DNA of 64,000 bases from Eledone cirrhosa (Eukaryota). Positions 506 to 34,295 of the stretch are shown here, piece by piece. Position 1 is the first letter of the stretch; every line of letters starts with the position of its first letter. The notes under the pieces are model-generated. The model made no database searches and was not told where the DNA came from. It saw only the letters and a program-made list of their open reading frames with translations. Location: NCBI GenBank assembly GCA_964016885.1, contig OZ024743.1:92256001-92320000 (forward strand), written 5' to 3'. Made by a program: the position numbers and the translations under genes.

Positions 506-1820
506 TTTCATTGGAAATATGGTAAAGAAAGGGTTGATGACATAGGCAGTGTTTTCATTGGAAATATGGTAAAGAAAGGGTTGATGACATAAACAGTGTT
601 GTTCATTGGAAATATGGTAAAGAAAGGGTTGATGACATAGGCAGTGTTGTTCATTAGAAATATGGTAAAGAAAGGGTTGATGACATAGACAGTGTTGTTC
701 ATTAGAAATATGGTAAAGAAAGGGTTGATGACATAGACAGTGTTGTTCATTAGAAATATGGTAAAGAAAGGGTTAATGACATAAACAGTGTTTTTCATTG
801 GAAATATGGTAAAGAAAGGGTTGATGACATAGACAGTGTTTTTCATTGGAAATATGGTAAAGAAAGGGTTGATGACATAAACAGTGTTTTTCATTGGAAA
901 TATGGTAAAGAAAGGGTTGATGACATAGGCAGTGTTGTTCATTAGAAATATGGTAAAGAAAGGGTTGATGACATAGGCAGTGTTGTTCATTGGAAATATG
1001 GTAAAGAAAGGGTTGATGACATAGACAGTGTTGTTCATTGGAAATATGGTAAAGAAAGGGTTGATGACATAGGCAGTGTTTTTCATTGGAAATATGGTAA
1101 AGAAAGGGTTGATGACATAGGCAGTGTTGTTCATTGGAAATATGGTAAAGAAAGGGTTGATGACATAGGCAGTGTTGTTCATTGGAAATATGGTAAAGAA
1201 AGGGTTGATGACATAGACAGTGTTGTTCATTAGAAATATGGCAAAGAAAGGGTTGATGACATAGGCAGTGTTGTTCATTGGAAATATGGTAAAGAAAGGG
1301 TTGATGACATAAACAGTGTCTTTCATTAGAAATATGGTAAAGAAAGGGTTGATGACATAGACAGTGTTGTTCATTAGAAATATGGTAAAGAAAGGGTTGA
1401 TGACATAAACAGTGTTGTTCATTAGAAATATGGTAAAGAAAGGGTTGATGACATTGACAGTGTTGTTCATTAGAAATATGGTAAAGAAAGGGTTGATGAC
1501 ATAGGCAGTGTTGTTCATTAGAAATATGGTAAAGAAAGGGTTGATGACATAGGCAGTGTTGTTCATTGGAAATATGGTAAAGAAAGGGTTGATGACATAG
1601 GCAGTGTTGTTCATTGGAAATATGGTAAAGAAAGGGTTGATGACATAGGCAGTGTTTTTCATTAAAAATATAGTAACGGAAGTGTTAAAGTTATAAGCAG
1701 TGTTTTTCATTAAAAATATAATTAAAAGGTTAGACATAAGCAGTATGTTTCATTGGAAATATGGTAATGAAAGGGTTAAAGACATAGACAGTGTCTTTCA
1801 TTAGAAATATGGTAACATTT
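506..1820. repeat. 48-bp minisatellite, about 27 units, degenerate at the right end
   Basis: Unit GTTCATTGGAAATATGGTAAAGAAAGGGTTGATGACATAGGCAGTGTT; it accounts for the 16-aa periodic ORF 508..1737(-). Confidence 0.95.
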
Positions 1821-25386: not shown

Positions 25387-26835
25387 TCATCATCATCACC
25401 GTTTTACGTCAGTTCTTCCATGCTAGCATGGGTTAGACGAGTTGTCCTGTTGTGGGCAGTGTCTGGTCGGCTGACCTTGCCTTGCTCATACAGGAACTGA
25501 TTCTGGCTTGATTTCTACAGCTGGATGCCCTTCCTAACACCAACCTCATTTACAGTGAGTACTGGGTGCTTTTTGTCGTGTCATCTACACAACCACCTTG
25601 CAGTGGGGGGTGTGGGGGCATATTGTCTATATGCTTCAGCTTCGGCTTGTACCTGTGGGGGGGTCAAGTCTTCTGTATTACTGCGTGACGCCAGAGGTCA
25701 CGGTCGTGTGTCATCGCCTTTGAGAGGTGTAATTGGGTAAGGTCGGCTTTTATCTCCTCATCGCAGGTCTTCTTGGGTCTCCCCACTCCGCGGTTTCCAT
25801 CGACTTCTAGTGCTCTGCACCTTTTTATGCAGCTGTCATCCTTCATATGCATCACGTGTCCATACCAACGCAACCGCCTCTCCTGCACACAGCATTTGAT
25901 TCCTCTTATGCTCAGTCTCTCTCTCAATTCATTTATGCTTTGTCGTTCGCGTATATTACTATTACACATTCATCGGAGCATGCAGGCTTCGTTTCTTTCT
26001 AATCTACGCTAGTCTTCCACAGTCAGTGCCCAGGGAAAAGCCTTTTGCAGCTAGCAGTGGCAGTAGTTCCCTAAACTTCTTCTATCCCGTTCTTACCCTA
26101 GTTATTGTACTTTCCGAACACCCACCTCCGCTGCTAATTCCGTCACCTAGGTAGCAGAAGCTGTCTACTGTTTTTACAGAGCCCTCCCAGAGTTTGGTGG
26201 TACTTGTTTCCTGTGGCTGTTTGCTGCTTGCTGTCCTAGCACAGCTGCTACATGTGAAGCCTACATTCTTAGTTAAGCTTCCTGAGATCCCGCTACATCT
26301 CTTGTGTACCCATTGTTTGCATTTGAGGCAGAGAATGGAGTTCCTACCTACACCTTTCCTACATACTGAGCAAGGCCATTTCCCTGAGGGGATCTGGGTT
26401 CTGTTTTCTCGTCTACTTACAAGGACCTTAGTCTTTGTCAGGTTGACTTTGAGACCCTTTCTGCAGGACTATGATGAACAGGAGAGGGCTAAGAACAGAG
26501 CCCTGGTGGACACCGACCTGTACGCTAAATTCCTCGCTATACTCATTGCTAATCCTAACTTTGCTGACTGCTCCCCTGCTTGTACAGCTTTCACAAGCCA
26601 TTCATCTACTTCTAGTTTTCTAAGAGCCCACCAGCATGGGGAACTCTGTCAAAGGGTTTCTTGAGATCGACTATGCCACGTAGAGTGGCTTACTTTTAGC
26701 TAGGTACTTTTTCTGTAACTGCCTTACAAGGAAGAGGGCTTCAGTGGTGCCTCTTCCTGGCACAAACCCAAATTGCATCTCATTTAGTTTCACCCAGTCC
26801 CCAATCAACTGTGCTATAACTCTTTCTGTTACTTT
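25387..26835 (-). mobile_element. RTE LINE 3' portion with internal deletions
   Basis: ORF 25664..25969 RLRWYGHVM...GVGRPKKT; QFGFVPGRGTTE-like RT motif near 26740-26780; (GAT)n tail. Confidence 0.9.
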
Positions 26836-26847
26836 CTATATATATAT

Positions 26848-27192
26848 ATCATCATTCATCATCATTTCATTTTACGTCCGCTTTTTCCCTGCTTGCAAGG
26901 GTGGGACGGGAACTGATTCTGGGTTGATTTCTACAGCTGGATGCCCTTCCTAACACCAACCTCATTTACAGTGAGTGCTGGGTGCTTTTTTGCCGTGGCA
27001 TCTGCACGACCACTTTGCAGTGGCATGATATGGACCCCAGTCCCTATCATCTCATTTCTACAGCTGAGTAAACTGGAGCAATGTGAAATAAAGTGTCTTG
27101 CTCAAGGAAACAACACATCACCCAGTCTGAGAATTGAACTCACAACCTTTCGATTGCAAGGCCAATGCTCTAACCACTAAGCCATGTGCCTC
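26848..27192 (-). mobile_element. Full-length family-B SINE with RTE tail
   Basis: Head GGCACATGGCTTAGTGGTTAGAGCATTGG (its first ~35 bp are duplicated at 27194-27228), core, RTE tail. Confidence 0.85.
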
Positions 27193-27227
27193 CATGCCAA
27201 TGCTCTAACCACTAAGCCATGTGCCTC

Positions 27228-27259
<32 letters not shown>

Positions 27260-27410: not shown

Positions 27411-28539
27411 TAGATGAGAAAACAGAACCCAGATCCCCTCAGGGAAATGGCCTTGCTCAGTATGTAGGAAAGGTGTAGGTAGGAACTCCATTCTCTGCCC
27501 CAAATGCAAATGATGGGTACACAAGAGATGTAGCAGGATCTCTGGAAGCTTAATTCAGAATGTAGGCCTCACATGCAGCAGCTGTTCTGAGACAGCAAGC
27601 AGCAAACAGCCACAGGAAACAAGTACCACCAATCACTGGGAGGGCTCTGTAGAAACAGTAGACAACTTCTGCTACCTAGGTGACGGAATTAACAGCGGAG
27701 GTGGGTGTTCAGAAAGTACAATAACTAGGGTAAGAACGGGATCGAAGAAGTTTAGGGAACTACTACCACTGCTAGCTGCAAAAGGCTTCTCCCTCAGAAT
27801 AAAAGGCAGACTGTATGATGCGTGTATCCGAACATCAATGTTGCATGGTAGTGAGACCTGGGCGCTGAAGGTGGAAGAATTACGTAGATTAGAGAGAAAC
27901 GAAGCCTGCATGCTCCGATGGATGTGTATCAGTAATATACGTGAACGACAAAGCATAAATGAATTGAGAGAGAGACTGAGCATAAGAGGAATCAAATGCT
28001 GTGTGCAGGAGAGGCAGTTGCGCTGGTATGGACATGTGATGCGTATGAAGGATGACAGCTGTATAAAAAGATGCAGTGCACTAGAACTTGATGGAAACTG
28101 CGGAGTGGGGAGACCCAAGATGACCTGGGATGATGTGATAAAAGCCGACCTTACCCAATTACACCTCTCAAAGGCAATGACACACGACCGTGACTTCTGG
28201 CGTCACGCAGTAATACAGAGTACCCGACCTCCCATGGGTACAAGCTGAAGCATATAGACAATATGCCCCCAATCCCCCACCGCAAGGTGGTCGTGGAGGT
28301 GCCACGGCAAAAAAGCACCCAGCCCACACTGTAAAGTGGATGTGTAGGCGCCACGAAAAAGCACCCAGCACTCACTGTAAATGAGGTTGGTGTTAGGAAG
28401 GGCATCCAGCTGTAGAAATCAAGCCAAATCAGTTCCTGTATGAGCAAGGCATGGTCAGCCGACCAGACACTGCCCACAACAGGACAACCCGTCTAACCCA
28501 TGCTAGCGTGGAAGAACGGACGTAAAACGGTGATGATGA

Positions 28540-28541
<2 letters not shown>
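27411..28541 (+). mobile_element. RTE LINE 3' portion
   Basis: ORF 27838..28248 LHGSETW...LRWYGHVM; (GAT)n tail; bounded by (TA)n on both sides. Confidence 0.92.
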
Positions 28542-28583
<42 letters not shown>

Positions 28584-28740
28584 TTTGAGTATATGTTGGT
28601 TGTATACCAACACCTCAGTATGCAGATTGGAGCACTCGATGAAGTGCACAGGTTGGTTTGGTTACTCCGGAGTAATGTAAAATAAAATAAAATAAAATAA
28701 AATAAATAAGTCAATTGTTTAAAATTTGGCTTCGTTTATT

Positions 28741-28795
28741 ACTGCTATATATATTTCGGTGACAGCCATCTTTGGCTGTGACCTCTTCAGGCAGT
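28741..28795 (-). ncRNA. Minimal type-I hammerhead ribozyme
   Basis: ACUGC-CUGAAGA-GGUCACAGCCA(AAGA)UGGCUGUCACC-GAAA-UAUAUA-UA-GCAGU: 5-bp stem I, intact core, palindromic stem III. Confidence 0.8.
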
Positions 28796-30144
28796 CCGAA
28801 TTAGTGGTATAGTAGAGACGAGTACACATGTCGTTGAGGTGTATAACTTTGTCAATACTCTGATATGCCCTGTTCCTGGTTGGGTTGTTATTTCACTGAG
28901 GAACTGGAATCATATGAATTTAAACAAACAAATTTCAGCGTCAAAGGGCCTCTTCTCCTCTCATTGGTCAGTTGTTAGAACATTCCTCAGTCAAAAGTCT
29001 ATAGAAATTTGTTCTGAGACAAGCCAATCTGTAGTTGTTGTTCTTGTTATTGTTAGGTACATCTGACCTCTATTCTTATATTGGTAGTGGTGTTGTTGTT
29101 GGAGTCACTAAAAAAAAATGATAAAGTGGTAGAAGGAATAAGATGGTAGAGAAACAAAATAAAATAAAATAATCAAATAAAATGTGTGTGTGTGTTATAC
29201 CCATTTCAATGTTATAAAGATTTGTAAGGTCACTCTTCCCATTGGTCAGTTTTGAGAGCATTCCTCTGTCCACAGTCTATAGAAATTCTTTCTGGGGTGA
29301 GGCTCCCTGTAGTGTTTGTGTTTGCTATTGTTAAGTACATCTTACCTCTACCCTTATTTTGGTAGTGTTGTTGGTGTTGTGGTCAGCTTATGTCTTGCTG
29401 CTGCTGACAATTTAGAAGTATCTGTGTGTGTGTTTCTTCATCCCTCCTGCCATCATCTCCCGTGGTGGTGGTGGTGGTGGTGGGGAGGGGAGGGAGGTTT
29501 CTGCCATGTATATGAAGAAATAGAAGGCAATAAAATGAAGAAAACAGAAAATAAATAATAAATAGAGAATAAATGAAAAATTAATGAAAAAGTAATGAAA
29601 AAGTAATGAAAAATGAATATGGAAAATGAAAAACGAAAATGAAAAGTGAAAAATAAAAATGAAGATTCAAATAAAATAAGATAAAATGTGTGTGTGCTAT
29701 AACCAATCTCAAGGTCAGAAATATGTTGGATAAAGTGGTAGGAGGAACAAGATGGTAAAAGAATAAAACGAAATAGGATAATCAAATAAAATGTGTGTGT
29801 GTTATAACCAATCTCAACTTAAATATAAATATAAGGTGATAAAGTGAAGAAAAGAGAAAACAAATAACAAATGAATAATGAGAAATCAAAAATCAAAAAT
29901 CAAGTAAAATAAAATGTGTGTGTGTTATAAAGATGTTGGCCAAATTATAAAGGCTGTGTCAGAATCAATCTCTAGGCTATCATGGTGTCTGCTCAGCCTG
30001 GGTTGGTCTCTATGGCTTGAGGGGAGTTCCCAACCTATGGTGTTGTTACTGCTCATATAGCTTGAGGGAGGTCTGGCCGAGAGGTGTCTACATGTTCTGG
30101 AGAAGTCCCTATAGCTTGAGGGGAGTTCACATCTTATTGTGTTG

Positions 30145-30395
30145 CTACTGTCCATATATCTTGAGGAAGGTCCCAGCCCTGAGGTGTCTGCATGTCCCGA
30201 AGAAGTCGGTTCTGAGGTTTATCACGCCGCTTCCACCTCTTAGTATCTCGAGGGTCTCGTTCAGACATAGTTTGCATATGCAGGATCCACCTTTATCGGG
30301 TGGTACTTTCCTGATTATGGACCAGGCCAGAGAGTATGGGGTCCTGTCCAGCTTAAGCTTCCAGATCAGGTCGGAGAGAACCGTACTTTTCCATG
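30145..30395 (-). pseudogene. Penelope-like GIY-YIG endonuclease C-terminal fragment
   Basis: STVLSDLIWKLK...YSLAWSIIRK...CKLCLNETLEIL...INLRTDFFGTCRH matches the PLE pattern LS..IW.LK...W.I...C.LC..E...I....N.R.E....CRH. Confidence 0.8.
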
Positions 30396-30512
30396 GTATA
30401 ACCATTGCCATTCCTTCAATAAGGAGACCAAAAGGAAAAGTACGGCTCTCTCCGACCTGATCTGGAAGCTTAAGCTGGACAGGACCCCGTACTCTCTGGC
30501 ACACTAATTTGG

Positions 30513-30567
30513 ACTGCCTGAAGAGGTCACAGCCAAAGATGGCTATCACCGAAATATATAGAGCAGT
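30513..30567 (+). ncRNA. Second copy of the hammerhead, probably inactivated
   Basis: Same as 28741-28795 but U16.1 is replaced by G (GAAAUAUAUAGA) and there is one extra stem-II mismatch. Confidence 0.65.
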
Positions 30568-30819
30568 AATAAACGAAGCCAAATTTTAAACATTGGACTT
30601 ATTTATTTTATTTTATTATATATATATAGTGGAAGTTAACTTGTGTCCAAGTATGAAACTATTTCATAGAAAAAAATTGTATTTGATTGGCATGGCATGA
30701 TTTGTAGTGGTGTATTAGCCAACTGGCAAAGTGACACACTTTGGTGCAGATTCCACACTGGCATATCTGAAGGTGCTTCCACTATCTGCTACCTATGTAA
30801 TTACAGATGTATTTTCGCC

Positions 30820-34095: not shown

Positions 34096-34295
34096 AGACT
34101 GAAATGAAAGATGAAAGGAAGGCTTCCATCGATGATCTCTCCAACAACTTCATGCAACAGTCGATTGATATGAGAAAATCCATAGCTGAAATCCCTGATA
34201 TCGATTCAGATTCTTCAGACATAAAAGTAGGCAAGAATTCATCCGAGCAAAGTTTGATATCGCAGCCTGTCGACACTGATGATTGTACTGATGAT
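34096..34295 (+). CDS. Exon of BCR/ABR-like RhoGEF gene: acidic, Ser-rich linker
   Basis: Acceptor tttttatcttatttcag, donor GAT|gtaatg; ETEMKDERKASIDDL...DTDDCTDD; phase-0 end fits the exon at 52374. Confidence 0.7.

What the first reader, a model, noticed from the sequence alone, without database searches (positions are those of the whole stretch)
28680..30620. Penelope-like remnant bracketed by two oppositely oriented hammerhead ribozymes
Seen: a canonical minimal type-I hammerhead at 28741-28795(-) (5-bp stem I, CUGAAGA, long stem II, GAAA, self-complementary AUAUAUAU stem III) and a U16.1-mutant twin at 30513-30567(+). Between them are a GIY-YIG C-terminal fragment and a ~68-bp fold-back (30326-30393/30435-30500) that jumps straight into the second ribozyme. 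Known: Penelope-like elements carry minimal hammerheads with palindromic stem III thought to cleave as dimers, and often leave inverted terminal repeats. Inference: the copy in the host-gene sense is the disabled one and the antisense copy is intact, as expected if selection disfavours cleavage of the host pre-mRNA.
Basis: partly seen in the sequence, partly recalled or inferred. Interest (0 to 1): 0.75.

Follow-up and report, generated by a model that had tools for sequence, protein, structure and literature searches.

The report
Ordinary inverted Penelope insertion, one decayed ribozyme
This is the truncated, back-to-back end of a very common Penelope-like jumping gene in the first intron of an octopod gene; one of its two self-cutting RNA motifs has a core mutation, which is likely ordinary decay rather than the host switching it off.

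Summary
An intact minimal hammerhead lies at 28741-28795(-), and a twin with U16.1→G and a stem-II mismatch at 30513-30567(+). The twin is sense to an ABR/BCR-like gene, inside its ~79-kb first intron. The insert (28580-30616, in (TA)n) is a 5'-truncated Hydra-clade Penelope-like element: intact 892-aa copies carry the clade motifs, and a 27-nt hammerhead word occurs 6,238 times. Head-to-head arms, one tailed and one tail-less, are the family norm (76 of 84 pair entries) and are published. The 'fold-back' is the junction of the two arms plus a 1.5-kb skip. The selection inference is not supported: genome-wide, three core sites carry 98 variants and four free sites 117 (p=0.45). Chance alone gives this one-sided hit about 17% of the time. 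The sense ribozyme is also predicted to be buried by its antisense twin. Two points stay unexplained: U16.1 alone is mutated 2.2-fold more than control U's, and copy 5' ends pile up 117-119 nt upstream of the ribozyme. Orientation in genes could not be counted genome-wide. The scan found this layout before on other octopod DNA.

The parts
28541..28579 (.). Host (TA)n microsatellite, left target flank (at the 3' end of an RTE-like LINE remnant)
   Evidence: LINE-like ORF 27514-28248 (family name from recall)
28580..28686 (-). ~105-nt 'tail' (start of the element's 5' UTR), present on this arm only
   Evidence: same sequence lies upstream of the ORF in tandem copy L087; tailed copies end at the same motif before (TA)n
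28687..28740 (-). AAUAAA and (TTTTA)n linker 3' of the left ribozyme
28741..28795 (-). Intact minimal type-I hammerhead, antisense to the host gene; predicted cut between 28746 and 28745
   Evidence: the active swapped dimer is the predicted MFE of two copies
28796..30144 (-). ~1.35-kb 3' UTR with internal repeats; holds the CATATG site where copy 5' ends pile up and a CCAAT box ~50 nt upstream of it
30145..30393 (-). Last 81 codons of the ORF (endonuclease C-terminus, CxxC..E..N..CxH); 5' truncation point of the long arm
   Evidence: 78/81 identical to residues 812-892 of the intact ORF in L081
30394..30500 (+). 107-nt sense piece of the endonuclease region belonging to the inverted arm; makes the 67-bp fold-back and the 41-nt spacer
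30501..30512 (+). Landing point of a ~1.5-kb skip, 13 nt upstream of stem I, with 1-nt microhomology
30513..30567 (+). Second hammerhead, host-sense, U16.1 to G (30561) and stem-II G to A (30545); predicted inactive
30568..30616 (+). AAUAAA and (TTTTA)n; tail-less end of the inverted arm
30617..30628 (.). Host (TA)n, right target flank
34096..34295 (+). Exon 2 of the ABR/BCR-like host gene (RhoGEF, C2, RhoGAP); exon 1 ends ~45 kb before the window

Best explanation
This is a 5'-truncated, head-to-head insertion of a high-copy Hydra-clade Penelope-like retrotransposon into a (TA)n repeat in intron 1 of an ABR/BCR-like gene, and the U16.1 change in its host-sense ribozyme is likely neutral decay after insertion. 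The element's endonuclease likely cut both strands of the (TA)n. Two cDNAs were likely primed from the family's two fixed start sites: the tail end (left arm, 1.8 kb) and the (TTTTA)n end (right arm). The right arm lacks 1.5 kb, likely through a template jump or a later deletion. The two 3' ends were then likely joined near the same template position. The ribozyme is predicted to act only as a dimer in tandem element transcripts, so a lone sense copy would not cut the host pre-mRNA. It would also pair with the antisense arm transcribed 1.7 kb earlier.
For: Shown: intact 892-aa ORFs with RWK, DKT, YRDD, CxCx5C, a GIY-YIG-type motif and CxxC/CxH, matching the Hydra description. 6,238 and 6,479 exact hammerhead words. 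One tailed plus one tail-less arm in 76 of 84 pair entries. (TA)n at both ends. Similar internal skips in at least 6 other pairs, with scattered landing sites. No general core excess. U16.1 mutants are 29 tail-less vs 22 tailed, against 159:138 overall (p=0.68). Predicted: monomer A15.1-U16.1 pairing probability 0.006 and an arm-to-arm duplex of -180 kcal/mol vs -21 for the arm alone; intact dimer -42.4 vs -35.2 for two monomers. Published: two internal RT start sites explain the tail, and ribozyme cleavage is not needed for insertion in vitro (PMC11167929); single minimal PLE hammerheads showed no cleavage (PMC4209133).
Against: U16.1 is changed 2.2-fold more often than two control U's (62 vs 28, 27), and I have no tested mutational explanation. 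Within the 120-nt arms the sense copy carries about 4 derived changes and the antisense about 1, although the fold-back adds 2 to the left arm. No cleavage or expression data exist. The insertion steps are inferred from structure and from an in vitro study of another clade.
Confidence: 0.85

Rival explanations
1. One reading: selection favoured the U16.1 mutation because the host-sense ribozyme cut the ABR/BCR-like pre-mRNA.
For: The mutated copy is host-sense and has two ribozyme changes. U16.1 variants are in 2.2-fold excess genome-wide. Xenopus retrozymes are depleted from introns (bioRxiv 10.64898/2026.07.22.740005, passages).
Against: A6 and A13, equally essential (recalled), show no excess (15 vs 41; 21 vs 21). 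The chance of this pattern is ~17%. The monomer is predicted not to fold, no second sense copy was found in 264 kb around the window, and the antisense arm would sequester it.
Confidence: 0.07
2. The dead allele was already in the template (a mutated source copy or an RT error), and cleavage-dead RNA is favoured because RT must read across the cut site.
For: A few pairs share the same core variant in both arms (A6: 2 pairs among 15 hits; U16.1: 1 pair among 62 hits), so dead templates or arm-to-arm conversion occur. U16.1 lies next to the cut site.
Against: Here only one arm has the change, whereas arms usually share template variants. The 62 variants are split among three letters and both subfamily backgrounds, with no expanded dead lineage. 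A6 and A13 are not enriched.
Confidence: 0.06
3. The two ribozymes and the hairpin form a host-adopted RNA device (for example a dsRNA or small-RNA source).
For: The host transcript would form 67-bp and 120-bp duplexes; the hairpin scores weakly on miRNA models.
Against: The miRNA scores are far below gathering thresholds and reflect any long hairpin. The layout is the family default. The arms have diverged like other old copies.
Confidence: 0.02

Closest known systems
Hydra clade of EN+ Penelope-like elements, incl. Hydra-1_Obim of Octopus bimaculoides (PMC8557442, section 11 and Files S1, S2)
   Same: Single RT + C-terminal EN ORF, RWK, DKT, CxCx5C linker, CxxC and CxH around E and N, a hammerhead near the 3' end, (TA)n targets.
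   Different: A different family: ~4.1 kb vs 2,507 bp, 892 aa with low-complexity inserts, a 1.2-1.5-kb 3' UTR, and a different ribozyme (long stem II, AU-palindrome stem III vs a 4-bp stem III in Hydra-1_Obim). Compared by eye with the supplement text, not aligned.
Poseidon PAc of Anolis carolinensis (PMC11167929)
   Same: Two fixed 3' ends (tail and no tail), AT-rich target, hammerhead upstream of the tail.
   Different: Other clade; its tail is 30-40 nt and inside the ORF, whereas here it is ~105 nt of 5' UTR and the ribozyme does not overlap the start codon.
Adineta vaga Penelope insertions (PMC3846280)
   Same: Head-to-head inverted pLTRs, a tail on one end only, palindromes at inverted junctions, internal deletions.
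   Different: Low copy number and target-site duplications there; thousands of copies in (TA)n here.
Minimal PLE hammerheads (PMC4209133)
   Same: Type I, weak palindromic helix III, predicted dimeric activity.
   Different: This sequence is untested; the youngest subfamily has G10.1-U11.1 instead of G-C.

Membership tests
Hydra-clade PLE | Single ORF with RT and C-terminal GIY-YIG-type endonuclease | tested here: met
   892-aa ORF with YRDD (351) and NIVY..YIG (770) in L081. Pfam gives no significant hit on it and only 1 of 28 aligned members hits RVT_1, so this rests on motifs.
Hydra-clade PLE | RWK present and DKG modified to DKT | tested here: met
   RWK at 37, DKT at 120; the only DKG is in the EN region.
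Hydra-clade PLE | CxCx5C linker instead of Cx2-5CxxC | tested here: met
   CNCRNPESC at 752; no Cx2-5CxxC.
Hydra-clade PLE | [quoted passage not shown] | tested here: met
   CKLC 850 and CRH 878, both also in the window fragment.
Hydra-clade PLE | Insertion into (TA)n | tested here: met
   Both flanks in the window and most copy ends.
Hydra-clade PLE | Short (<3 kb) element | tested here: not met
   Unit is ~4.1 kb; the paper says 'generally short', a tendency and not a rule.
Hydra-clade PLE | Groups with Hydra RTs in a tree | not tested
   Reference sequences were seen only as paper text; no tree built.
EN+ PLE insertion structure | Inverted 5'-truncated copy, with a tail at one end only | tested here: met
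   Window, and 76 of 84 pair entries; described in PMC8557442.
Type-I hammerhead ribozyme | CUGANGA, GAAA, UH core with stems I-III | tested here: met
   Left copy complete; right copy lacks U16.1. Core numbering and the NUH rule are recalled.
Type-I hammerhead ribozyme | Match to an Rfam hammerhead model | tested here: not met
   No hit at gathering or E<=10.
Type-I hammerhead ribozyme | Self-cleavage | not testable with these tools
   Only folding: the active dimer is the MFE for two left copies, not for two right copies.

The most novel reading that the evidence does not exclude
The U16.1-specific 2.2-fold excess of cleavage-dead copies is a footprint of selection on host-sense intronic ribozymes, this locus being one case, so thousands of PLE hammerheads would be cutting octopod pre-mRNAs in vivo.
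Probability: 0.07. Interest if true: 0.6.

Novelty: new member of a known kind. Interest (0 to 1): 0.2.

Why it matters
The locus itself matters little: it is one of thousands of copies with a published layout. The family is more useful. It has intact ORFs and over 6,000 near-identical ribozyme copies, so with an annotation it allows a well-powered test of whether PLE hammerheads cut host transcripts. Its sharp 5'-end pile-up may mark the element's RNA start, which bears on how PLE inverted ends form.

Tried and rejected
Rfam hammerhead models: no hit. Pfam on the window fragments and the full ORF: no significant hit. PDB sequence search with a 28-member profile: 0 hits. RNA runs: no RNA holder listed, so no reads were laid. 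A special 'jump to the ribozyme': rejected, because skips in other pairs land at about -12, -23, -107, -141, -244 and -668, and 5' ends just upstream of stem I are not enriched. A second 5'-end peak at -197 was a reference indel artefact. A dead subfamily with U16.1G: rejected, because variants are sporadic and of three letters. Tail-less arms being preferentially dead: rejected (p=0.68). Other family copies in the host gene: none besides these two in 264 kb. Arm-versus-arm differences, core vs non-core: 9 over 10 sites vs 102 over 72 sites in 70 pairs (4 misaligned or truncated pairs dropped), p=0.24, biased low by the exact search patterns. One paper search for hammerhead + intron + antisense orientation + selection + retrotransposon gave 3 listings whose titles and abstract openings do not address this test; that is a single search.

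Full report
Observation. A both-strand scan of the window for type-I hammerhead cores found exactly two, at 28741-28795(-) and 30513-30567(+). The left one is complete: 5-bp stem I, CUGAAGA, a 10-bp stem II with one mismatch, GAAA, and UAUAUAUA, giving the palindrome AUAUAUAU from A15.1 to U16.1. The right one has G for U16.1 (30561) and a stem-II G to A change (30545). They sit in 120-nt arms that are 95% complementary, and a 67-nt, 97% fold-back lies at 30326-30392/30434-30500. Rfam does not score either ribozyme and Pfam does not hit the peptide. Core numbering and the need for U16.1 are recalled knowledge.

Host gene. A + strand exon at 52371-52523 matches octopod ABR/BCR-like proteins at 69-75% identity. 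tblastn on the window plus 150 kb upstream and 50 kb downstream puts exon 1 at -47088 to about -45064 and exon 2 at 34096-34295, all on +.

Family. A 27-nt ribozyme word occurs 6,238 times in the 3.0-Gb genome (reversed control 0). The peptide at 30145-30393(-) is 78 of 81 identical to the C-terminus of an intact 892-aa ORF. That ORF has RWK, DKT, YRDD, CNCRNPESC, NIVY..YIG, CKLC and CRH, the marks of the Hydra clade (PMC8557442, section 11 read). It differs from Hydra-1_Obim in length and ribozyme (supplement rows and passages; compared by eye, no tree). The unit reads 5' UTR, ORF, 1.2-1.5-kb 3' UTR, ribozyme, AAUAAA, (TTTTA)n; the 'tail' is the first ~100 nt of the next unit.

Anatomy of this copy. 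The insert runs from about 28580 to 30616 between (TA)n runs. The left arm has the tail and reaches 1.8 kb into the element. The right arm starts at about 30394 with 107 nt of sense endonuclease sequence, skips ~1.5 kb, and resumes 13 nt before stem I, ending without a tail. So the 41-nt 'loop' is simply where the right arm reaches further 5' than the left. In 297 distinct ribozyme copies from the fetched loci (159 tail-less, 138 tailed), 84 divergent pair entries were found (two insertions entered twice), of which 76 join one tailed and one tail-less arm. At least six other pairs have internal skips, with scattered landing points. The layout is in print (PMC8557442 passages; PMC3846280 passages), and the two fixed ends match the two internal RT start sites shown for Anolis Poseidon (PMC11167929, parts 1-2 of 4 read). 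Two primed cDNAs joined head to head is my inference; jump versus later deletion for the skip is not resolved.

Would the sense copy threaten the host RNA? The monomer's A15.1-U16.1 pair has a predicted probability of 0.006. Two intact copies fold best as the active swapped dimer (-42.4 vs -35.2 kcal/mol for two monomers), two mutant copies do not. A single minimal PLE hammerhead showed no cleavage in vitro (PMC4209133 passages). No other copy was found in the 264 kb scanned, and in the pre-mRNA the antisense arm is made first and would pair with the sense arm (-180 vs -21 kcal/mol). These are predictions, not assays.

Test of the selection inference. Exact-pattern counts over the whole genome gave 6,479 intact copies. 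Single-site variants at core sites: U16.1 62, A6 15, A13 21. At free sites: N7 41, loop-III U 28, AAUAAA U 27, AAUAAA A 21. Core 98 over three sites vs free 117 over four gives p=0.45. The intact denominator was measured only for the pattern; I assumed similar denominators for the others. Against my reading, U16.1 alone is 2.2-fold above its two control U's (p about 4e-4), through G (19 vs 5, 3) and A (23 vs 9, 9) changes. The edge of a TA run is a likely but untested cause. Of the 62 variants, 51 were examined: 29 tail-less and 22 tailed by automatic typing, no bias. The arms here differ at 8 of 187 sites, so a given arm has a 21% chance of a core hit and 'sense only' has 17%. Among 51 pairs not chosen for a core mutation, 7 have one core-changed arm and 2 have both (a lower bound). 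Orientation in genes could not be counted without annotation. Retrozymes are reported as depleted from Xenopus introns (bioRxiv 10.64898/2026.07.22.740005, passages only; supplements not seen), so selection against genic ribozyme inserts is not absurd, but nothing singles out this copy.

Side result. Among 284 copies, 74 have their 5' end 110-124 nt upstream of stem I, with peaks at 117 (20) and 119 (21); that is 2.5 ends per 100 copies per nt, against 0.2-0.3 in the bins at 50-94 and 125-199 and 0.8 at 95-109. The site is a CATATG palindrome with a CCAAT box 52 nt upstream. A second CATATG at -32 gives only a small bump. An RNA start site with run-off copying, or joining through the palindrome and TA microhomology, could each explain it; neither was tested. 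The sample is weighted to the start of one chromosome and to variant-bearing copies.

Verdict. A real, correctly described but ordinary insertion of a new Hydra-clade family. The orientation is as claimed; the selective reading is unsupported. Earlier notes of this scan reached the same class on other octopod DNA; I consulted them only after my own tests. Interest 0.2.

Noticed in passing
family-wide; window about 28912-28917(-): 5' ends of copies pile up 117-119 nt upstream of the ribozyme at a CATATG palindrome with a CCAAT box ~50 nt upstream (74 of 284 copies within 15 nt): possible RNA start site or joining hotspot.
   Followed up: partly
family-wide, position U16.1: U16.1 is substituted in 62 copies vs 28 and 27 at control U's; the excess is in G and A. 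The TA palindrome of stem III also resembles the element's (TA)n target.
   Followed up: partly
L227, L232, L239, L247: Rare variants, including core A6 changes, shared by both arms of one insertion: both arms come from one template, or convert each other.
   Followed up: partly
L080, L081: Intact 892-aa ORFs with arms over 98% identical; this youngest subfamily has a G10.1-U11.1 wobble in the ribozyme.
   Followed up: partly
window 26032-26415 / 27411-27794 and 26920-27023 / 28277-28426: Neighbouring inverted pair of RTE-like LINE fragments (384 nt, 94% complementary).
   Followed up: no
window 27123-27230: tRNA-like head (Rfam 29.9 bits) with a 35-nt exact duplication, likely a SINE.
   Followed up: no
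window 508-1749: Tandem array of a ~42-nt unit giving 413-aa and 303-aa open frames on the + strand, in the host intron.
   Followed up: no
window 29984-30207: The end of the ORF is repeated three times as ~100-nt units running into the 3' UTR.
   Followed up: no
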